Of a stretch of 64,000 nucleotides of DNA, positions 1 through 31,486 are shown in pieces. The position numbers were made by a program, and so were the translations under genes. Origin of the DNA: an uncultured Nitrososphaerales archaeon (GTDB taxonomy: Archaea > Thermoproteota > Nitrososphaeria > Nitrososphaerales > Nitrososphaeraceae); contig CAVQMO010000010.1 of assembly GCA_963713605.1 (NCBI GenBank), forward strand, positions 960,001-1,024,000, read 5' to 3'. Every line of letters begins with the position of its first letter. Position 1 is the first letter of the stretch. The notes under the pieces are model-generated. The model did no database searches. It saw only the letters and a program-made list of their open reading frames with translations, and was not told the origin of the DNA.

Positions 1-1157
1 GCGTTTCCTCCACCAATGACGGTCACCTCTTCTCCTTGACACAATTGCGCTTCCATAGGAGTGGCAGCGTAATAGACACCTGCGCCTTCAAAGCGCGGCA
101 ATTTTTCGCACTGTGGCTTCCGATAGGCCGCCCCGGTTGCAATCACAACGGTACGTGCAGGAATTCTAACTCCATTCTCGACTTCAACAGCGTAAGGTTT
201 ATGGTCGCAGTGGAGCCGAATGCCCTTGGTGATGAGAATCTCTGCGCCGAACTTCTGTGCCTGCAGATATGCTCGACTAGCAAGCTCCTGGCCTGGGATA
301 CCAGTGGGGAATCCCAAGTAATTTTCAATTTTTGAGCTTGAACCTGCCTGACCACCAGGTGAACCCGTTTCCAACACTAGAACATCTAGACCTTCTGAAG
401 CGCCATATACTGCAGCAGCCAATCCAGAGGGACCAGCGCCGATTATGATGAGATCGCGCACCTGGGTCTGATTAATAGATTCGTTGAAGCCAAGACAGTC
501 CGCAATTTCCTGCTGACGGGGATTCCTGAGTACCACTTGGCCACGGCAAATCACCACTGGTATCTCGCTGGCTGCGAGATGGAAACTGTCCAACATATTC
601 TGTACGTCGGGGTCATGTTCGAGGTCTATGTAGGAGTATGGATGTCCATTCCGCATCAAAAACTCTTTAATTCGAAGCGTATCAGCAGAATATGTCGAGC
701 CAATAAGAACAATGTCCCCAACACCAGCGGTTATCAACTCCGCTCTACGTAGGATGAAAGCCCTCATCATAATCTCCCCAAGTTCAGCATCAGTCTGCAC
801 TAATGTAAGCATATGCTGCCGATCTAGTTCTATCACCTTACCCGGCTTAGTGGCACGCAAACGGAACATGGTCCGTCGGCCGGACAGCGTGCCGACCTCG
901 CCAGTGAACTGGCCAGAGCGATGTACGGTAACGAGAGTCTCAACGGCTCCCGAAGGGCGCAGAACCTCGAGCTCGCCAGAGACAACTACAAAGAATGACG
1001 CGGAGCTATCTCCCTGGTCGTAGAGAATTTCGCCACGCTTTATCGTACGTGTGCGACCGTGTGGTGTGATACGACGAATCTGTGTCGGTGTTAATTTTGG
1101 AAATATTTGCTCTATACGAGCTCTATTTAGCGGAAGAACCCTACGTGTATTATTCAT
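1..1157 (-). CDS. cNMP-binding-domain thioredoxin-reductase-like FAD oxidoreductase (3' end runs off the window)
   Basis: Manual minus-strand translation from ATG 1157: MNNTRRVLPLNRARIEQIFPKLT...GEILYDQGD..FFVVVSGELEV..GQFTGEVGTLSGR (cNMP domain), a glutaredoxin-like segment, DLIIIGAGPSGLAAAVYGASEG..GGQAGSSSKIENYLGFPTG (FAD site) and VTVIGGGN (NADPH site). Missing from the ORF track because it has no stop in the window. Confidence 0.9.
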   Translation of the reverse strand, partial: MNNTRRVLPLNRARIEQIFPKLTPTQIRRITPHGRTRTIKRGEILYDQGDSSASFFVVVSGELEVLRPSGAVETLVTVHRSGQFTGEVGTLSGRRTMFRLRATKPGKVIELDRQHMLTLVQTDAELGEIMMRAFILRRAELITAGVGDIVLIGSTYSADTLRIKEFLMRNGHPYSYIDLEHDPDVQNMLDSFHLAASEIPVVICRGQVVLRNPRQQEIADCLGFNESINQTQVRDLIIIGAGPSGLAAAVYGASEGLDVLVLETGSPGGQAGSSSKIENYLGFPTGIPGQELASRAYLQAQKFGAEILITKGIRLHCDHKPYAVEVENGVRIPARTVVIATGAAYRKPQCEKLPRFEGAGVYYAATPMEAQLCQGEEVTVIGGGN

Positions 1158-1838: not shown

Positions 1839-2775
1839 ATGAAGGTCGGTCTTGTATTACCTCATCTTGGCACTGAGAGGTACAAAAGAGAGTATTGAAA
1901 AAATAGCGGTTGGAGCTGAAAATGAAGGCTTTGATTCATTGTGGGTTGCAGAAAGGCTTCTATGGCCGCTAAAACCCCAGACACCATATCCGGCGACGGA
2001 AGATGGGACCTTACCCACTTTTTATCAAAGAGTATTAGATCCGTTAGAAACACTTACTTTTGTAGCCGGCAAGACAGAAAGAATAGCATTAGGCACTTCA
2101 GTCATTGATATGTTATTCCATAATCCTGTAGTTTTGGCAAAAAGGTTTGTTACACTGGATCTTCTTTCAAATGGTAGAGCGATATGCGGACTTGGTATCG
2201 GATGGTCTAAGGATGAATATCAAGCATCGAATATACCTTTTAAAGATAGAGGTAGGAGAGCGGATGAATTTGTACAAGTGTTAAAGAAAATATGGGAAGA
2301 CGACATTGTAGAGTTCCGTGGCCAGTTCTATAGCATACCATCTTCAAAGATTGGGCCCAAACCGGTGCAGAAGCCTTCAATTCCAATTTATCTAGGTGGC
2401 TATGTTCCTAATACGTTCGTTCGTATTGCCAAATATGCTGACGGATGGTTGGGATCTCACGCAGGTCCTATGGATTTTCTAGAGAAAAGTATAGCATCTT
2501 TGAATGAACAAGCAGTCCAGGTAAATAGAAATTCAAAAGGGTTTAAAAATACTGTACTAACATTTCCTCAACTAGTAACAAATTCGGGTCCCTCTAGTGA
2601 TAGTGCTAATGGTGATCAAAAACGAATTCCATTATCTGGAACAATCGATCAAATCGGCCAAGATATTAAGGATATAAAGTCTTTAGGATTCGAACAAATA
2701 GTTTTTGCATTCTCAGGATTGGAATTGGACAAAGTAATTGGAAAGGCAAAGGAACTTTCACAGTATGCCAGGTGA
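1839..2775 (+). CDS. LLM-class (luciferase-like, probably F420-dependent) oxidoreductase; 1-nt frameshift near 1880
   Basis: ATG 1839 gives MKVGLVLPHLG, then shifts into the 1852..2775 ORF: GFDSLWVAERLLWP, LDPLETLTFVAGKTERIALGTSV, LGIGWSKDEY, PKPVQKPSIPIYLGG. Confidence 0.85.
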
Positions 2776-2848
2776 TGAAATAATGATTAGAAAATAGTTG
2801 AGAGAAGGAAACTATGCATCTGGTTAATAATCTAGAGGAAATAGCGCC

Positions 2849-3908
2849 ATGAAAATTATGATTCATCAGCTCAGAGAACAAGATCTCGCGGAAGCAGATC
2901 GTATCTTCAGGTTGGCGTTTGGTACTTTCTTCGGACTTCCGGATCCCATGAGTTTCGCTGGGGATGCCGACTACGTAAGAACACGTTATTACGCTGACCC
3001 CTCTTCCGCCTATGGAGCAACGATTGTTGATAATAATGGAAGAAGTACGTAGTAATGGTAATGATAGTCGAAAACTCATAGGCTCAAATTTTATCGCTAA
3101 TTGGGGTAGCGTTGGATTCTTTGGACCACTTACTGTACATCCAGATTATTGGGACAAGGGCGTCGCTAGATCCCTGATGGAACCAACAATGCAACTTTTT
3201 TCTGAATGGAATACAAAATATTCTGGTCTCTTCACGTTTGCGCACAGCCCAAAACACTTATCCCTATATCAGAAGTATGGGTTCTGGCCATATTTTCTTA
3301 CAGCGGTTATGTCAAAGGTAGTTAGTCCGAGTATAGCTAAGAGCGTTAATAACGAGAGCCTACAATGGTCAAAGTATGCGGATGTATCTAATAGGGAGAA
3401 TGGAGGTGACGAATATTTAGTTAATGATTGCCATAGATTAACAACCGCTATTTACGATGGATTGGACTTAAGAGTTGAAATCATGTCTGTCATTAGGCAA
3501 AAGCTTGGAGATATAGTGTTGATTTGGGATCTTGATTCTAGTAATAATACTACTAGTAATAATAGAGACATCGCAGGATTTGCAATATGTCATTGCGGCA
3601 AGGGAACGGAGGCTGGTAGTAATACTTGCTACATCAAATTTGCTGCTGTTCGGCCGCCACCAACATCGGATAATGATGCTATATTTGTTGCTGATAACTT
3701 TGATAGATTAATTGATGCGTGCACGAGTTTTGCATCACATCAAGGGCTGTCCCGTCTGGTGGCCGGTGTCAACACAAGTCGTCTGCTAGCATATCGAAAG
3801 ATGTTATCAAAAGGATTTCGTATCGATATGTTAGGTATTACAATGCACAATGGAGTTGATGTCGGCTACAACAGGCCTGATGTATATGCTATTGATGACT
3901 GGCGATAA
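2849..3908 (+). CDS. tandem GNAT-family N-acetyltransferase; frameshift near 3040
   Basis: Two overlapping ORFs join into one protein: FFGPLTVHPDYWDKGVARSLM (acetyl-CoA motif A), LYQKYGF, and a second GNAT-like half. Confidence 0.8.
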
Positions 3909-4405
3909 GTAATTCATGGATCTGATTGCAAAATGTGCAAAACACGAAGTTCAACGATGCGTTCATGGGTTCTTCTTGTGCACCTACTGTGATAGGAGAG
4001 TTTTTTACATTTTCCATGGTTTTACATTTTGGTTATTATTATTGAGATTTGTATCGATCACATGTTATGTTCTATGTTGTAGCCTGCCCTCTAACCATGT
4101 CATATTCCTGTCGCTTCTATCTGTAAGTTCGCTACATAAACAATGATGTGAAAGCCTTATCTTTCCATTCTGTAAGACTGGCTGGTAATTGGGGAGATGG
4201 ATTTCATGTCCACTAGTTGGTTCGATAATGGTTTAGAACGGTCGTATTGTAATATATGGCTACCCCAGGTGTGAAGTATCTTGATATCATTTGAGGTGAA
4301 TAAACCTGACTCATTTTACCATCCCTATGCCAGCCGAAGCTCTATGAAAGAAAATCAATAGATTTACTCGATAGCTTTAAGAGGTTGAATTATGAAAATT
4401 AGCAT

Positions 4406-4873
4406 ATGGCAAATAGCAATTATGATGCAGCTGACATTGGAGAAGGTTCCTCGGCCAGTAGAAAGGACGAGATAATTAAAGGTCTAAATGAAGATCTCGC
4501 AAGAGAATACAAGGCAATTATTCAGTATGTGGTCTATAGTTCTACACTAAAGGGTGCGGAATATAGTGATATTGCAGAGCAGCTAAAAAAACACGCTTCG
4601 CAAGAGCTTGCACACGCATTAGAAGTAGCTAGACAGATTGACTATCTTGGAGGAGATCCGACTATGAAGGGAAAGGAGGCCGAATATTCACAGGATTCAA
4701 AGACAATGTTAGAATTAGATCTTAAAGCTGAGCAAGAAACTATCAAGAACTACAGGGAGAGAATTAGACAGGCAGAACGCTCAGGTGAATTTGCTCTCTC
4801 GGAGGCTTTAAGAGATATTATCAGGCAAGAACAAGACCATGAAATTGATTTAAAAGATGCTCTCGGATTGTGA
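4406..4873 (+). CDS. bacterioferritin-like (ferritin-like domain) protein, copy 1
   Basis: Ferroxidase-type pattern LAREYKAIIQY, QELAHA, AEQETIKNY, QEQDHE; Leu replaces the heme-ligand Met of classic Bfr (QEL versus DEM). Confidence 0.85.
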   Translation: MANSNYDAADIGEGSSASRKDEIIKGLNEDLAREYKAIIQYVVYSSTLKGAEYSDIAEQLKKHASQELAHALEVARQIDYLGGDPTMKGKEAEYSQDSKTMLELDLKAEQETIKNYRERIRQAERSGEFALSEALRDIIRQEQDHEIDLKDALGL

Positions 4874-9974: not shown

Positions 9975-11346
9975 ATGAATATGTTTGCTAACGGAAACAA
10001 ATCTACGATGAATCGAGTCAATATTATTGCATTAGTAATCGGCATGACATTGATAGTTTCTGTTACCATTGGTTTTACAATACATTTCAATGGTCTTGGC
10101 CTTAATCAAGCTTGGTCAGTACAACAACAACAAAAAGATAAAGGGCTTGTCGTAGGTGGTGTTCATTCACCAGAATTTCAATCTGAGAAAAACTATACTA
10201 ATATGAAGAATGCTGTCCAAACCGGAATAACTCATCCTGTAATAACGGGTGGAGAAATGGTAATAACGGGTGGAGAAATGGTAGAAAATCATAATAAAAC
10301 TACAATGAAGCTTAATGCTACTCAATTCCAGCAAATCGACAAGACACAGTTTATGAAGGCTCCTGAATTTGCTCAAATCAGTGGCTATATAAACACACCT
10401 GAGAACAGCCCACTTACACTTTCATCTCTTAAAGGAAAAGTGGTGTTAGTATACATTTGGACTTATACATGCATTAATTCGATTCGTCCAATGCCGTATA
10501 TCCATGACTGGAATCAAAAATATTCTAATAATGACCTAGTTGTGGTTGGTGTTCATTCACCGGAATTTCAATTCGAGAAAAACTATACTAATGTGAAGGA
10601 TGCGGTCCAACGGTTTGGAATAAAATATCCTGTAGTACTAGACAGTGATCATGGAACTTGGAACGCATATCGAAATAATTATTGGCCCAGATATTACTTG
10701 ATTGATGCTCAAGGATATATAAGATATGATCACATTGGTGAAGGTGACTATAATCAAATAGAGAAATCAATTCAGTCTCTATTGGCTGAACGTGCTCGCT
10801 TTGATGGGCGCAAACGAAATAAGTTTCAATGCGGAACCTGCCACAGTAATTAACCCAGGAAGTTTGTATTATGTAGATCTAAGACAGAACACAACACCAG
10901 AAATTTACATAGGGTATAATACAGCCAGAAATCCACTTGGAAATCCTGAAGGCTTTAAACCGGATCAGACAGTTTCATATTCAATCCCATCAACTACAAA
11001 TTTTAGTCCTCACATTGCATATCTTCAAGGCAAGTGGAAAAACAATCCTGATAATATGGAATTGAAAAGTGATACTGGGCGCATTGTCTTGACATATTAT
11101 GGAAAGTCTGTAAACATAATAGCGGGAGGAAAGGGTGGAGGAGTTGTTTCTAATGACGAAGCAGGAGCAGCCACAGCACTAACATCAAACAATTCACTGG
11201 GGGAGGACCTATCACCCGATGGTAGTTTTAGAATTGACGGACAAAGGTTGTATAATTTAGCTATACACAACAACTACACTGCTCATAGTATTGTAATTGA
11301 TGTTAAGGGAAAAGGCTTTCAGTTCTATACCTTTACCTTCGGATAG
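9975..11346 (+). CDS. membrane-anchored DipZ-like redoxin (thioredoxin fold plus C-terminal beta domain); frameshift near 10795
   Basis: N-terminal TM; LKGKVVLVYIWTYTCINSIR, GVHSPEFQFEK, NNYWPRYYLID; the downstream ORF has TPEIYIGY, RLYNL and YTFTFG, typical of DipZ C-termini. Confidence 0.85.
10239..10283. repeat. 21-bp in-frame tandem duplication (VITGGEM x2)
   Basis: GTAATAACGGGTGGAGAAATG at 10239-10259 and 10260-10280. Confidence 0.9.
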
Positions 11347-11576
11347 ATAGCGGAGATGATACTAAAGTAGGCTTCTGTCCTCTTAGTTGGAACTTGGATA
11401 GACCGTTTTACTTGTTGAAAAATCAAGGTTTGCTTTTCCATAGTAAGTGACATATTATGCGAAAAAATAAGCCTTGTTAAGCGAGTTAAGTTGAAAGTCA
11501 ACGACAGCGTTAACTGCGCAACCTGAAAAACTTTTTTTACTTTCGATGGGAAATGCTTCATAACAGGTTAAAGACT

Positions 11577-12677
11577 ATGGTTGAAAATAGCAACAATAAG
11601 CAAGAATTATTTGACCTAATAGTTATTGGAACGGGTAATGCGGCATCTGTTGCCGCATCCCAATGCAGTTCTGCGGGACCTTATAGGGAAAGTGGCTGTA
11701 ATTGATTCATTACCCTTTGGAGGTACTTGTGCATTGCGTGGATGTGAACCTAAGAAAGTCTTTGTCGAGGCAGCAAAAGTGATTGATTCAAACAAAAGAC
11801 ATAAAGATAAAGGGATTGTGGGTTCTGAAAAACTGCACATTAAATGGTCTGAACTAATTCGCTTTAAGAGAACTTTTACTGAATCTTATCCAAAGCATAG
11901 AGAGGAAGTTTATAAAAAAGCTGGAATTACTGCTTTTCATGGTCATGCGAAATTCATTGGTTCAACCACATTAACCGTAAAGTCTAAAGTAAACGATACT
12001 GAAAGTGGAGATACCACTCTTAATGCCAAACATATACTAATAGCAACTGGAGCCAAACCTATGAAGTTGAATATCCCAGGAGAAGAATATGTTATAACAA
12101 GCGATCAATTTTTGGAATATACGGGCGAGCGTTTGCCTGACAAAATTGTGTTTGTAGAGGGAGGATATATATCATTTGAGTTCGCACATGTGGCTGCTTG
12201 TGCAGGAGCAAAAGTAATCATACTGCATCGTGGCAAGCGACCACTAGAGCACTTTGACCCAGATCTTGTCAACCAGTTGATGCAGAGGAGTAGAGATATG
12301 GGAATTGATTTTTATCTAGAGTCAGAAGTGGAAAGAATCAAGAGATCATCTGATGACCTTTATTCAGTGCAAATTTCTATTATTTCTCCTAACTCAAACT
12401 CACAACCAAGCTCAAATGTATTAGAGGCTAATATGGTAGTTCATGGTGCAGGTAGGCAGGCGAATGTTGATGAACTAGATCTTGCGTCAGCAGGAATTGA
12501 GTATACTAGCCGCGGTATTAGGGTAAATGAATATTTACAAAGTGTTTCGAATCACTCCGTTTATGCAGCGGGTGATGAGCGGCTAGTGATGGCTTTCCGT
12601 TGACTCCAACAGCAACGTATGACGGAAGCATAGCGGCAACCAATCTAATTAATGGAAATACTGTCAGGGTTGCCTAG
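11577..12677 (+). pseudogene. glutathione-reductase/dihydrolipoamide-dehydrogenase-like flavoprotein, frameshifted and lacking the C-terminal dimerisation domain
   Basis: ATG 11577 MVENSNNKQELFDLIVIGTGNAAS; shift into FGGTCALRGCEPKK (redox CxxxxC); YAAGD; second shift into PLTPTATYDG..NLINGNTVRVA* at 12677. Confidence 0.85.
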
Positions 12678-16937: not shown

Positions 16938-18149
16938 TCAAGAATTCAGAGTATAGACTTTATAAGGCTTGTCAGTCCCATAATTGATATACTTCCATCG
17001 TCCTTCAGAGATCGACAGCTCCTGAAATTCTCTCTGCAATTTGCGGTCTAATGAATTATATACATTCTCTCCTACGGAGACTTTATTAGCACCTGTAAGA
17101 GAAGTTATCTTTGATGCCACATTCATGCTATATCCCAGTATGTCAATAGGCGAGAGCTGTTCATAACCAAACTGAACAATTGCGTTTTCTCCTGCATCTA
17201 TACCGATCTTGGGAAAGAGCTCAGGATACCTGTATATTTTGTGCAATATTTCATTAATCTCTTCCTTGACCGCATTGATCATCGATTTCCCACATTCAAC
17301 TGAAATGGATGAGGCATCATATTTGTCCTTCTTATTAAGATGGCATGGGAAAAATGAGATTACCCCATCACCTGCATATTTCAGGACATATCCACCATGA
17401 CTATCTATAACATGTGACATTTGATGGGCGAAAGCTCTAATTATTGTGACAAGGTTATCTATGGGTAGGGTCATGCTCATTTTCGTTGAGCCAACGAGAT
17501 CGGCGTATATGATAATGAGAGGAATCTTAGAACCGATATGTTTAAGAAGAAAGTCTTGACCACGTCTTACTGAAGTATTAATTATTTTCGGCCATAGGTT
17601 ATCTAGTATTAAAGGAGTATGTATTTTGTACCAATATACCATTGATTCTTCTTCCTGCATACTCCTTTCAAGTAGAGAGATATTCTCATGTTTTCGTGGC
17701 ATATCCATCTCTTGCATTCTCCTGATCAGTGAATCGTAAGCCATCAATTCATCATGTTCTATTGCGAAGTCTCGCCTAATTTGCACTAATTCATATTCTT
17801 CTGGCATAGAGTCTGTTAGACCGTTATCCTCTGTTTTTGATTTTACTTTCCTTGGAAGATTATTTCCATCCGGCAGCGTGGTAGATACGAATGATCGCGA
17901 TAAATCTGCCTTAACATCAGTTGGCTTTTCTCCCAATCGTATAATTATTTTTCCAAGCCTGCTTTTTTGAATATTTGTTTCTTTCAAGTGCTGTTTTAGT
18001 CTTTGTTTTACTTCTTGTATTGGGGTCTGATCCATTCTTGATATTATTCTATTTACTGACGCATTTTCAGTAGATAATGCTTCATTTAGTTTGTCAATTA
18101 GCTCTGAAAGTAATTGCATCTTATTATCATGGGCATTACTATAATACAA
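16938..18149 (-). CDS. ferritin-like (DUF892/YciE-F type) domain fused to a class III adenylate/guanylate cyclase
   Basis: N-terminus: LNEALSTENA, QHLKETNIQKSRL..IIRLGEKP, FAIEHDELMAY, SMQEEESM. C-terminus: IYADLVGST, VLKYAGDGV, KIGIDAGE, DILGYSMNVASKI. Confidence 0.85.
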   Translation of the reverse strand: MYYSNAHDNKMQLLSELIDKLNEALSTENASVNRIISRMDQTPIQEVKQRLKQHLKETNIQKSRLGKIIIRLGEKPTDVKADLSRSFVSTTLPDGNNLPRKVKSKTEDNGLTDSMPEEYELVQIRRDFAIEHDELMAYDSLIRRMQEMDMPRKHENISLLERSMQEEESMVYWYKIHTPLILDNLWPKIINTSVRRGQDFLLKHIGSKIPLIIIYADLVGSTKMSMTLPIDNLVTIIRAFAHQMSHVIDSHGGYVLKYAGDGVISFFPCHLNKKDKYDASSISVECGKSMINAVKEEINEILHKIYRYPELFPKIGIDAGENAIVQFGYEQLSPIDILGYSMNVASKITSLTGANKVSVGENVYNSLDRKLQREFQELSISEGRWKYINYGTDKPYKVYTLNS

Positions 18150-18429
18150 ATACTTTTCATGTTTTACTATCTTATTTAAGATTGTTTCTCAAAGAGTCAG
18201 CAAGTTAGACATATTGATAGGGATTCGTTTTCTACAATAGATACTCAACCTACTCGATATCCCTACCTCAGTTTGTCTGACTTCTCATTGAATATCTCTT
18301 TGCCCATGAAATGTCTTTCCAAGGTTACAAAAATAAGAATTCCGGCAAGAACCATTGTATATGCTTGAGCTAATATGCTATTGTTGATCATGAATCATCC
18401 ACTAACTTGAAATCTCCTCCTAAAGATTT

Positions 18430-18695: not shown

Positions 18696-19522
18696 ATGAC
18701 AAAAATGAAACCTTTTGGTTTATTGTGTCTGAGTATAATTCTACTTCTGAGCTTTATGTCATTGACATCTTCCGGCTCCGCCACACCAGAGAATAAAACA
18801 TTAATGCAACCTCAAGAAGTACAGGATATGGCAACAAACGCTACGAATATCGTTTTAGTCCATGGTTTATGGGCTGATGGATCTTCATGGAGCAAAGTAA
18901 TTCCTATTCTACAGAACGCAGGTCACAAAGTTATTGCAGTGCAACTTCCTGCCCATTCTCTGGCAGATGATGTGGAAACTATAAAGCGTGCAATTGAGCT
19001 GAGCTGGCGGACCAACAATACTTGTGGGACACTCATTCGGTGGATTCGAAATCACTAATGCCGCATATAATAATCAAAATGTAACAGGGCTTGTCTACGT
19101 TGCGGCCTTTGCTCCTGATGAGGGTGAATCTACCGAGAATTTCGTCGATGTTTCAAAATTTCCTCCAGGATTATTGGTTCCTGATAGTGGAGGATTTTTC
19201 TACCTAAACCCTGAGATGTTCCACGAAGCGTTTATTCAGGATGCAAATGCGACTGAAGCTGAAATTTTGGCCGCCGTAGCAAAAGCCAGCTCATCAATCA
19301 CTTATACCCGAAAAATCTGGCCCTCCTGCTTGGAAGGAACTTCCCACATGGTTTGCGGTGTCTGAGAACGACCACATTATCCCTCCTGATGCACAACGTA
19401 ATTTCGCAGAACGAATGAATGCTACTACTATATCTCTTAACTCTAGCCATGCATCGCTTGTAACACACCCAGATGAGATCGCCGAATTAATCCTAAATGC
19501 AACCAAAGGGGTGACAAAGTAG
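18696..19522 (+). CDS. secreted alpha/beta hydrolase; frameshifts near 19000 and 19280
   Basis: Signal peptide, [32 protein letters not shown]; a third frame gives [29 protein letters not shown], stop 19522. Confidence 0.8.
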
Positions 19523-19523
19523 C

Positions 19524-20345
19524 ATTAGCACAATCATTACCAAGGACGGGACTGAAATCTACTATAAGGACTGGGGCAAAGGTCCCGTCGTAACTTTTTC
19601 GCACGGCTGGCCTCTGAGCGCAGACGCTTGGGATGGCCAAATGCTGTTCCTTGTGCAAAATGGCTTTCGCGTAGTTGCTCACGACCGTCGCGGTCATGGC
19701 CGGTCAAGTCAGGCTTCTTCGCGGAATGACATGGATGGCTATGCAGATGATCTTGCAGCCGTGATCGAAGCGCTTGATCTCAACGATGCAACGCTTGTGG
19801 GGCACTCCACTGGCGGAGGTGAAGTCGCCCGCTATATCGGTCGCCATGGTACAGAAGCGAGTTGCCAAGGCTGTTCTGATCGCGGCTATACCCCGATCAT
19901 GGTTAAGTCCGATACCAATCCGGAGGGTCTACCGATAGAAGTGTTTGATGACATGCGTTCGAGTCTTGTCAAGGATCACTCGCAATTCTATAAGGATCTT
20001 GCAATGGCGTTCTATGGTGCCAACAGAGAAGGTGCCAAGGTCTCCAAGGGAATCCTGGATCAGTTCTGGCTTTGGAGTATGCAAGCCGGCCTCAAGAATG
20101 CCTATGAAAGCATCAAGGCCTTTTCCGAGACTGATTTCACCGAAGATCTCAAGAAATTCGATGTCCCAACTTTGGTTATGCATGGTGAGGACGACCAGAT
20201 CGTTCCCGTCAAAGATGCAGCTAAGAAATCAGCCAAGCTCATCAAAGGCGCGAAGGAAATCTACTATCCTGGTGCGCCTCATGGCCTCACTGCCACACTT
20301 CAGGATCAGGTCAACGCCGACCTGTTGTCCTTCCTAAAGTCCTAG
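19524..20345 (+). CDS. cpo: non-heme chloroperoxidase/perhydrolase (alpha/beta hydrolase), bacterial-type
   Basis: Open from ATT 19524: [74 protein letters not shown]-rich relative to flanks. Confidence 0.88.
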
Positions 20346-31015: not shown

Positions 31016-31486
31016 TCATTGTAGACCAAGAGCATCTTTCAGATCTATTTCGTGATCCTGTTCTTGTCTAATAATATCACTTAATGCTTCAGAAAGGGCA
31101 AATTCGCCTGATCTTTCAGCCTGTCGTATTCTCTCCCTATAGTTCTTGATAGTCTCTTGTTCAGCTTTGAGATCCAATTCAAGCATTGTCTTTGAATCCT
31201 CCGAATACTCTGCCACCTTGCTTTTCATAGTTGGGTCTCCGCCAAGATAGTCGATCTGCCTGGCTATTTCAAGTGCATGTGAAAGCTCCTGTGAAGCGTG
31301 CTTTTTTAACTGTCCTGCTATATCTCCATATTCCGCACCCTTCAGTGTAGAACTATAGACTACGTATTGAATAATCGCCTTGTATTCTCTTGCTAGATCT
31401 TCATTTAAGCCTTTAATTATTTCGTCCCTGTTTGAAGATGAACCTTGTTCTCCCGCATCAGCTGCTTCATAATTGCTATTTGACAT
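31016..31486 (-). CDS. bacterioferritin-like protein, copy 2
   Basis: Closely similar to the 4406..4873 protein (EIIKGLNEDLAREYKAIIQYVVYSSTLKGAEY...EQDHEIDLKDALGL). Confidence 0.85.
   Translation of the reverse strand: MSNSNYEAADAGEQGSSSNRDEIIKGLNEDLAREYKAIIQYVVYSSTLKGAEYGDIAGQLKKHASQELSHALEIARQIDYLGGDPTMKSKVAEYSEDSKTMLELDLKAEQETIKNYRERIRQAERSGEFALSEALSDIIRQEQDHEIDLKDALGLQ

What the first reader, a model, noticed from the sequence alone, without database searches (positions are those of the whole stretch)
16938..18149. Ferritin-like (DUF892/YciE-F) domain fused to an adenylate cyclase: candidate metal/peroxide-sensing cyclase
Seen: one uninterrupted ORF. The N-terminal four-helix bundle keeps the acidic/His pattern of YciE/F-type di-metal proteins (NEALSTE, HLKET, IEHDE..Y, QEE). 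The class III cyclase keeps both metal Asp residues (YADLVGS, AGDG) and the adenine-specifying Lys/Asp (LKY, DILG), with N..K in place of the usual N..R. There is no TM segment. Established: class III cyclases are regulated by N-terminal input domains, and YciE/F are stress-induced ferritin-like proteins. Inference: a soluble archaeal cyclase gated by Fe/Mn occupancy or oxidation. I know of no characterised example.
Basis: partly seen in the sequence, partly recalled or inferred. Interest (0 to 1): 0.75.

Follow-up and report, generated by a model that had tools for sequence, protein, structure and literature searches.

The report
Ferritin-like domain fused to archaeal cyclase
Some soil ammonia-oxidising archaea carry an unstudied gene that joins a ferritin-like domain, still holding the residues its bacterial relative uses to bind iron, through a link of fixed length to an enzyme predicted to make cAMP, so it likely lets iron loading or oxidation tune a messenger whose makers in archaea were still uncharacterised in a 2023 review.

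Summary
Window 16938-18149 (-) is one 403-codon frame: a DUF892/YciE-type ferritin-like domain (Pfam above cut-off; predicted fold matches YciE, Z 19.2) followed by a class III cyclase with both metal Asp and the adenine Lys/Asp pair. It is no assembly artefact: 118 of the 120 best homologues carry both domains. The fused genes form one clade in both domain trees, were found only in Nitrososphaeraceae (35 of 238 genomes, whole or partial), and both halves are under purifying selection. The three ligands shown to matter in Salmonella YciF map to Q61, E134 and E167, kept in 19 of 20 other intact fusions. The spacing from helix D to the first catalytic Asp is identical in 120 of 120 homologues and is predicted to be helical, as expected of coupled sensor-cyclases. 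Against: only 7 of 20 keep all eight candidate site residues, two intact copies lost a core one, 12 of 38 loci are broken, Lys replaces the catalytic Arg (family-wide), and nothing was assayed. Best reading: a metal-occupancy/redox-gated adenylate cyclase (45%); a metal-independent oligomerisation or docking role is the main rival. No paper on this pairing was found.

The parts
16938..18149 (-). Whole ORF, 403 aa from TTG (393 aa from ATG at 18119); DUF892-class III cyclase fusion
17622..18119 (-). DUF892/YciE-type ferritin-like four-helix bundle, residues 11-176
   Evidence: Pfam; PDB profile search; AlphaFold pLDDT 88.7; Foldseek; VIA Z 19.2, rmsd 1.6 over 144 to YciE 3OGH
17649..18068 (-). 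Candidate metal-site residues E28, H54, E57, Q61, E131, E134, Y138, E167; Q61/E134/E167 match YciF Q54/E113/E143
   Evidence: alignment to 4ERU; YciF mutants; conservation
17805..17903 (-). Long B-C crossover loop, residues 83-115, variable in length and low in predicted confidence
17541..17618 (-). Junction helix, residues 178-203: DUF892 tail spliced at about residue 191-192 onto the pre-catalytic helix of the parent cyclase; length invariant
16941..17534 (-). Class III nucleotide cyclase domain, residues 206-403: D217, D261 (metal), K257, D336 (adenine pair), N343, K347

Best explanation
The gene encodes a soluble fusion of a YciE-type ferritin-like domain and a class III cyclase that is predicted to make cAMP, and the ferritin-like domain likely acts as an input whose metal loading (most likely Fe(II), reset by oxidation) tunes the cyclase through the fixed-length junction helix. 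Shown: the two domains, the conserved residues, the single origin, the invariant spacing, selection on both halves. Inferred steps: (1) two chains pair to form the cyclase active sites, as class III cyclases do; (2) ATP is the substrate, from K257/D336; (3) metal binds at E28/Q61/E134/E167, as in YciF; (4) the bridging ligand E167 sits on helix D, which runs past one proline kink into the helix (178-203) that replaced the parent cyclase's own N-terminal helix, so metal binding or Fe(II)/Fe(III) change would shift that helix and the register of the cyclase dimer; (5) by analogy with the hemerythrin cyclase Bhr-DGC the reduced, loaded state would be the more active one (direction is a guess). 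Output is least certain: the only cNMP-binding domains found in this genome are on two TrxB-like flavin oxidoreductases and one histidine kinase.
For: Domains above Pfam cut-offs; predicted N-domain matches YciE/YciF structures among the top rows (3OGH Z 19.2, 3HIU 19.0, 2GYQ 18.9). Salmonella YciF binds iron, is a ferroxidase, and needs Q54, E113, E143 (10.1101/2023.01.20.524870); with the 3-residue offset of chain 4ERU these align to Q61, E134, E167, found in 119 of 120, 120 of 120 and 119 of 120 homologues and all three in 19 of 20 other intact genomic fusions. The window protein keeps all eight candidate residues, as do 87 of 120 homologues. Spacing from the helix-D motif to the first catalytic Asp is 48 residues in 120 of 120 homologues and 21 of 21 genomic fusions, while the B-C loop span varies from 69 to 81; the junction is predicted as one helix at pLDDT 92-95; helical register of such linkers governs coupling in engineered class III cyclases (PMC5995499). 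dN/dS 0.28 (0.21-0.35) for the DUF892 helices, 0.23 for the junction, 0.19 for the cyclase, over 10 disjoint pairs. All six catalytic positions are kept in 20 of 20 intact fusions. Fused rows form one side of a branch in both trees (97 SH-aLRT; 100/99). A non-heme diiron domain gating a nucleotide cyclase has a precedent: Bhr-DGC, tenfold more active diferrous (PMC9388753).
Against: No activity, metal or binding data. Only 7 of 20 intact genomic fusions keep all eight candidate residues; eight have E57V with E131N, E131 is Lys in 31 of 120 homologues, one intact copy has E28T and one has Q61K, while the cyclase residues stay perfect: the domain can be kept with a damaged site. The conserved residues are equally conserved in unfused DUF892 proteins, so they may be inherited, and buried Glu/Gln/His can be kept for folding. 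Lys stands where canonical adenylate cyclases have the transition-state Arg. 12 of 38 fusion loci are frameshifted, truncated or stopped, so the gene is dispensable or often mis-assembled. No fixed operon. The link to the cNMP-binding oxidoreductase is weak.
Confidence: 0.45

Rival explanations
1. The DUF892 domain regulates the cyclase without metal as the signal: it replaces the parent's N-terminal helix as a dimerisation or oligomerisation scaffold, or docks the free DUF892 proteins that are multiplied in these genomes, and the site residues are inherited or structural.
For: The fusion removed the parent's conserved N-terminal helix and put the DUF892 tail in its place. YciF oligomerises, also as ligand mutants. 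Site residues decay in intact clades while the domain stays under selection. Free DUF892 genes are common in the family (matches in 109 of 200 genomes, up to 12 per genome) and one is in this genome.
Against: The three tested ligands survive in 19 of 20 intact fusions; E28, H54, E134 are invariant in 21 of 21 diverse fused rows although only 33 of 116 helical positions are near-invariant.
Confidence: 0.3
2. Two activities on one chain with little coupling: an iron-scavenging ferroxidase (or a local Mn/Mg buffer) and a constitutive cyclase, fused because the genes lay side by side.
For: The closest unfused DUF892 in the tree (L061, G433) lies 277 bases upstream of an unfused cyclase gene on the same strand, so adjacency offers a route to chance fusion; the second copy in this genome is split by one stop at the domain border.
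Against: No flexible linker; spacing invariant in 120 of 120 and junction dN/dS 0.23. The G433 cyclase is not the sister of the fused cyclases in the best tree, though that placement is not rejected (p-AU 0.28).
Confidence: 0.12
3. The enzyme makes another cyclic nucleotide (cUMP, cCMP or cGMP) or is nearly inactive; the family is closer to Pycsar cyclases than to canonical adenylate cyclases.
For: PADLOC PycC model PDLC02367 scores 94.7 bits, well above Pfam's 40. It shares N..K and the Tyr before the first Asp (Y215 = Y50) with 7R65.
Against: The other two uracil determinants of BcPycC (D94, R97; PMC11224242) align to A259 and G262, and the adenine pair K257/D336 aligns with K/T of CyaC and CyaB. 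No CNBD-TIR or membrane effector was seen beside it. Best PDB profile matches are adenylate cyclases.
Confidence: 0.1
4. A recent, neutral fusion on its way out.
For: 12 of 38 loci broken; present in 35 of 238 family genomes.
Against: Diverged to 48% identity with the frame and junction intact, dN/dS well under 1 in both halves, spread over 9 genera.
Confidence: 0.03

Closest known systems
YciF (Salmonella Typhimurium STM14_2092, PDB 4ERU) and YciE (E. coli, PDB 3OGH); Pfam DUF892
   Same: Fold (Z 17.5 and 19.2), the tested ligands Q54/E113/E143, YciE-type helix D motif EE-x-x-M-x-x-W.
   Different: These are stand-alone stress proteins; here the domain is fused in frame to an enzyme, has a longer B-C loop, and parts of the site decay in some clades.
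Class III adenylate cyclases CyaC (1WC0) and CyaB (3R5G); sensor-fused forms such as OaPAC/bPAC
   Same: Catalytic domain, metal Asp pair, adenine Lys, arm of the same length as CyaB/CyaC, N-terminal input joined by a helix.
   Different: Asp where CyaC/CyaB have Thr, Lys for the transition-state Arg, archaeal, and a ferritin-like input not found in the papers searched.
Vibrio cholerae Bhr-DGC (hemerythrin-GGDEF) and Ferrovum Bhr-HD-GYP
   Same: A non-heme diiron four-helix domain N-terminal to a cyclic-nucleotide enzyme, with redox-dependent activity (PMC9388753): the working model.
   Different: Hemerythrin (five His) is another fold family and ligand set; the messenger is c-di-GMP; bacterial.
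Pycsar cyclase BcPycC (PDB 7R65)
   Same: N..K in the catalytic helix, Tyr before the first Asp, strong profile match.
   Different: Lacks two of three uracil determinants, keeps the adenine pair, no cognate effector gene.
Unfused class III cyclase family of Nitrososphaerales (COG2114 noted in PMC9289680 and PMC13577086)
   Same: Parent of the C-terminal half; 65% identical paralogue in this genome; same N..K.
   Different: Parents carry their own N-terminal helix and other extensions; none was found characterised.

Membership tests
DUF892 / YciE-YciF | PF05974 above gathering score | tested here: met
   44.4 bits vs 23.7
DUF892 / YciE-YciF | Ferritin-like four-helix bundle with long B-C crossover | tested here: met
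   Predicted model pLDDT 88.7; YciE Z 19.2, rmsd 1.6, 144 aligned; other ferritin-like chains tie within 1 Z
DUF892 / YciE-YciF | Ligands needed for YciF ferroxidase activity (Q54, E113, E143) | tested here: met
   Q61, E134, E167 by profile alignment to 4ERU (E 0.017, offset 3)
DUF892 / YciE-YciF | Binds iron, ferroxidase activity | not testable with these tools
   needs purified protein
DUF892 / YciE-YciF | Homo-oligomer | not tested
Class III adenylate cyclase | PF00211 above gathering score and cyclase fold | tested here: met
   40.2 bits vs 21.9; PDB matches to E 2e-19; Foldseek hits all cyclases on a low-confidence model
Class III adenylate cyclase | Two metal-binding Asp | tested here: met
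   D217, D261 in 120 of 120
Class III adenylate cyclase | Adenine-specifying Lys plus Asp/Thr | tested here: met
   K257, D336 align to K/T of CyaC, CyaB; 119 and 120 of 120
Class III adenylate cyclase | Transition-state Asn and basic residue (usually Arg) | tested here: inconclusive
   N343 kept; K347 for Arg, as in 7R65; whether Lys supports ATP cyclisation here is unshown
Class III adenylate cyclase | Forms cAMP from ATP as a dimer | not testable with these tools
   needs assay
Pycsar | Pyrimidine determinants (BcPycC Y50, D94, R97) | tested here: not met
   Y215 matches; A259 and G262 do not
Pycsar | Adjacent cNMP-activated TIR or membrane effector | tested here: not met
   Flanks are an alcohol dehydrogenase-type gene and alpha/beta hydrolases; no recurring effector in 35 loci
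Hemerythrin-type diiron sensor enzymes (Bhr-DGC) | Hemerythrin domain with five His ligands | tested here: not met
   One conserved His; Pfam and fold point to the ferritin-like group
Hemerythrin-type diiron sensor enzymes (Bhr-DGC) | Activity follows Fe(II)/Fe(III) state (works-like claim) | not testable with these tools
   needs anaerobic assay
Canonical diiron-carboxylate proteins (bacterioferritin, rubrerythrin) | Two ExxH motifs | tested here: not met
   Helix B has Q61-x-x-R64 and helix D E167-x-x-M170

The most novel reading that the evidence does not exclude
A ferritin-superfamily metal site recruited as an iron/peroxide sensor for cAMP synthesis, feeding a cNMP-binding TrxB-like flavin oxidoreductase: a complete archaeal iron-redox to cAMP to redox-enzyme circuit in soil ammonia oxidisers, and a first characterisable archaeal cAMP source with its input and output.
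Probability: 0.2. Interest if true: 0.82.

Novelty: new variant of a known kind. Interest (0 to 1): 0.58.

Why it matters
A 2023 review states that no archaeal protein that makes, degrades or binds 3',5'-cAMP has been characterised (PMC10249747). This is a soluble 45 kDa candidate with a built-in, residue-level hypothesis (YciF-equivalent mutants, natural site-degenerate variants such as the one in Ca. Nitrosocosmicus agrestis SS, L183, and an unfused 65% identical paralogue as control), testable by E. coli cya complementation. If gating holds, ferritin-like domains join hemerythrin and globin as metal/oxygen inputs of nucleotide cyclases, and soil nitrifying archaea, whose peroxide sensitivity is recalled from the literature and was not checked here, gain a signalling route from iron or oxidant status.

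Tried and rejected
Full-length AlphaFold model from 34 close homologues was poor (pLDDT 52.6) and says nothing about domain packing. Complex prediction of the N-domain dimer was not available, so dimer geometry is open. No RNA holder was listed; two runs labelled metatranscriptomic but probably DNA gave three short contigs: no evidence on expression either way. Whether the stop in the C15 copy is real could not be checked against reads. Search for longer fused forms found none among 435 candidates (weak). No plasmid record covers 80% of the protein (0 of 217 matches). NCBIfam gave no family above cut-off. A conserved operon was sought in 35 loci and not found; recurring neighbours (alpha/beta hydrolases 9 and 7, FAD oxidoreductase 7, Rieske protein 6, cNMP-TrxB 4) look like a shared accessory gene pool. 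Co-occurrence with cNMP-TrxB is 25 of 34 against 59 of 187, but fades in genomes of 2.3 Mb and more (5/9 vs 17/44; 16/20 vs 26/36), kin are not independent, and three of the four near-neighbour cases involve a broken fusion gene: kept as a lead only. Adjacent unfused DUF892-cyclase pairs: 1 tandem case (G433) and 1 convergent case about 1 kb apart with another cyclase subfamily (L118) among 18 close unfused DUF892 loci read: not a general arrangement. Rejected: assembly chimera, membrane receptor cyclase, Pycsar membership, N..K as a fusion-specific change. The E. coli YciF structure paper and the archaeal KaiC survey were not held, so the full ligand list of the two sites is not established; E28, H54, E57, E131, Y138 are candidates by conservation only.

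Full report
Observation. The window holds one open frame at 16938-18149 on the minus strand, 403 codons from TTG, 393 from the ATG at codon 11. Residue numbers below count from the TTG. Pfam finds DUF892 at 17-174 (44.4 bits, cut-off 23.7) and the class III cyclase domain at 213-378 (40.2, cut-off 21.9). No membrane segment. Named relatives at 81-85% identity are Nitrososphaerales/Nitrososphaeraceae, so the source is inferred to be a soil ammonia-oxidising archaeon; runs that hold a large share of the stretch are soil and rhizosphere metagenomes.

Is the fusion real and how far does it reach? Of the 120 best homologues listed (2084 passed the threshold), 118 carry both Pfam domains; JGI's automatic names for several read 'class 3 adenylate cyclase/ferritin-like metal-binding protein YciE', and the ESM Atlas has two clusters with this pairing, 153 and 76 members, over 90% archaeal. 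So the architecture sits in databases. In all 238 genomes of the family, 208 have a cyclase of this type, and I counted 35 with a gene of the fusion clade, whole or partial, in 9 of 18 genera (one of the 35, G377, is unpublished and no other claim rests on it). In a phylum sample, 43 of 43 genomes of the sister family matched the cyclase half only and 0 of 257 outside the order matched. DUF892 itself was found in 12 of 23 genomes of this family, 1 of 13 of one other, and 0 of 115 in the rest of an order sample. Of 38 fusion loci, 21 are intact, 5 are cut by a contig end and 12 are broken (plus the window); some breaks may be assembly errors. This genome has a second copy (G000:C15:137437-138663) split by one TAA at the domain border, a free DUF892 gene, and ten cyclase matches.

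Origin. In a tree of 72 DUF892 domains (72 of 78 aligned rows, those of at least 135 residues; quick search, SH-aLRT only) the 22 rows labelled fused, which include one fragment and three broken genes, form one side of a branch (97), nested among free family DUF892 proteins. In a tree of 75 cyclase domains (LG+G4; unpublished and duplicate loci left out; rows picked by a motif that fixes D217, K257, D261) the 27 fused rows do the same (100/99), nested among unfused family cyclases. The nearest free DUF892 (L061) lies 277 bases upstream of an unfused cyclase in G433, a possible picture of the pre-fusion state; that cyclase is not the sister in the best tree but is not rejected as such (p-AU 0.28). 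Comparing parents with the fusion shows the splice: the DUF892 tail (LWP motif) replaces the parent cyclase's N-terminal helix and joins at about residue 191-192.

The input domain. An AlphaFold model of residues 11-205 from 78 sequences has pLDDT 88.7. Foldseek ranks YciE/YciF-family chains first, though none at E under 0.001; VIA-align gives YciE 3OGH Z 19.2, rmsd 1.6 over 144 residues, tied within 1 Z with other ferritin-like chains. Salmonella YciF binds iron, oxidises it, and loses activity as Q54A, E113Q or E143D, E143 being the single bridge; its crystal has Mg in the sites (10.1101/2023.01.20.524870: abstract, passages and Discussion read, supplements closed and Fig. S1 there may bear on the ligand list). 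In the profile alignment to 4ERU, an offset of three puts Q, E and E at those numbers, opposite Q61, E134 and E167. These are kept in 119, 120 and 119 of 120 homologues and together in 19 of 20 other intact genomic fusions. The wider set is less stable: 87 of 120 homologues but only 7 of 20 diverse intact fusions keep all of E28, H54, E57, Q61, E131, E134, Y138, E167; eight have V57 with N131, and the Nitrosocosmicus copies L178 and L183 have T28 and K61. There is no ExxH motif.

The junction. The distance from the helix-D motif to the first catalytic Asp is 48 residues in 120 of 120 homologues and 21 of 21 genomic fusions down to 48% identity, while the B-C loop span varies from 69 to 81. The model shows helix D (153-176), a break at P179, and one helix 178-203. 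Helical register of the linker decides coupling in engineered class III cyclases (PMC5995499, passages). Pooled dN/dS over ten disjoint pairs: DUF892 helices 0.28 (0.21-0.35), junction 0.23, cyclase 0.19, loop 0.48.

The output domain. D217, K257, D261, D336, N343, K347 are all present in 20 of 20 intact fusions and 118 of 120 homologues. K257 and D336 align with the adenine-specifying K and T of CyaC and CyaB. K347 replaces Arg family-wide; 7R65, whose Y50, D94 and R97 identify it as the uridylate cyclase BcPycC (PMC11224242, passages), has the same N..K, so Lys is not a mark of a dead enzyme (BcPycC activity is recalled). PADLOC PycC models score up to 94.7 bits, but two of three uracil determinants and any effector gene are missing, so ATP remains the best substrate guess.

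Surroundings and receptors. Flanks are an alcohol dehydrogenase-type gene, glyoxalase, esterase, Rieske protein and alpha/beta hydrolases in a region rich in redox and stress genes and pseudogenes. No operon is conserved across 35 loci. The genome's three cNMP-binding domains lie on two TrxB-like oxidoreductases, one about 16 kb away in this window, and a histidine kinase. An earlier scan note on a phosphodiesterase-fold protein in this genome (e1-9959150) got only a weak match here (22 bits, below cut-off).

Mechanism. I commit, at 45%, to a dimeric adenylate cyclase tuned by metal loading or oxidation of the YciE-type site, transmitted from the bridging Glu on helix D through the junction helix. 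The main rival (30%) is a metal-independent scaffold or docking role, which the decayed sites in intact clades support. Loose bifunctionality (12%), another nucleotide or no activity (10%) and neutral decay (3%) follow.

Known and new. The working precedent is Bhr-DGC, where a hemerythrin diiron domain makes a diguanylate cyclase tenfold more active when diferrous (PMC9388753, passages and one section); this protein works like it on the best reading but is not a hemerythrin. Searches for the pairing found nothing: 'adenylate cyclase' with 'DUF892' 0 papers; ferritin-like/Nitrososphaera/cyclase terms 0; searches listed nothing on it by title and abstract start. The archaeal two-component survey has no 'cyclase' or 'ferritin' in its main text (PMC5847659, term search); two AOA genome papers mention class III cyclases only as gene categories (PMC9289680, PMC13577086, passages; supplements not read); PMC13401364 and PMC2447327 were seen as passages and added nothing. 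The library lacks most subscription papers. A 2023 review says no archaeal cAMP-making, -degrading or -binding protein has been characterised (PMC10249747, abstract, passages and part 2 of 7).

Verdict. A real, single-origin, family-restricted fusion, kept under selection with a rigid junction: a new variant of sensor-coupled class III cyclases. Interest 0.58: a clean test case for archaeal cAMP and for ferritin-like domains as sensors, held down by an accessory, often broken distribution, a partly decayed site in some clades, and no functional data.

Noticed in passing
G000:C15:137437-138663 (L002/L166): Second fusion copy, 66% identical, split by a single TAA exactly at the end of the DUF892 bundle, with TTG/GTG codons just after it: a pseudogene, an assembly error, or a natural fission into two whole domains.
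   Followed up: partly
window 3-1157 (-), continuing outside the window; also G000:C12:337198: cNMP-binding domain fused to a TrxB-like flavin oxidoreductase that shows no CxxC in the usual place; present in 89 of 238 family genomes; candidate cAMP receptor.
   Followed up: partly
L132 (G000:C1:199790-203038): cNMP-binding domain fused to what looks like a histidine kinase, next to a TrxB-like gene; second candidate cAMP receptor.
   Followed up: no
G000:C5:166206-167669 (L011): KaiC-like ATPase fused to a class III cyclase (both above Pfam cut-off), downstream of a MinD/ParA-like gene.
   Followed up: partly
L100 (G433:C222) 2345-4216: Free DUF892 gene 277 bases upstream of a free cyclase gene on the same strand; this DUF892 is the nearest unfused relative of the fused domains.
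   Followed up: yes
L104, L105, L106: Cyclases of the same family with a different, roughly 250-residue repeated N-terminal region that Pfam does not name: another unexplored input.
   Followed up: no
window 4406-4873 (+) and 31016-31486 (-): Two near-identical small ferritin-like (bacterioferritin/DPS-like) genes within 15 kb of the fusion.
   Followed up: no
G000:C10:103026-106370 (L004): 1114-aa bacterial-type zinc-ribbon/cyclase/ATPase/TPR protein, unlike the archaeal cyclase family; possible transfer or contamination.
   Followed up: no
window 9975-12603, 18696-20345: Several neighbouring genes (redoxin, disulphide oxidoreductase, hydrolases) are frameshifted; the region looks like a decaying accessory island or carries assembly indels.
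   Followed up: no
P0200, P0193: DUF892-like proteins with further unnamed C-terminal regions, P0200 apparently ending in a second ferritin-like segment.
   Followed up: no
window 18150-18200 (-): A purine-rich stretch followed by a TTAAATA box about 25-30 bases before the TTG, as expected of an archaeal promoter with a leaderless transcript (read by eye).
   Followed up: no
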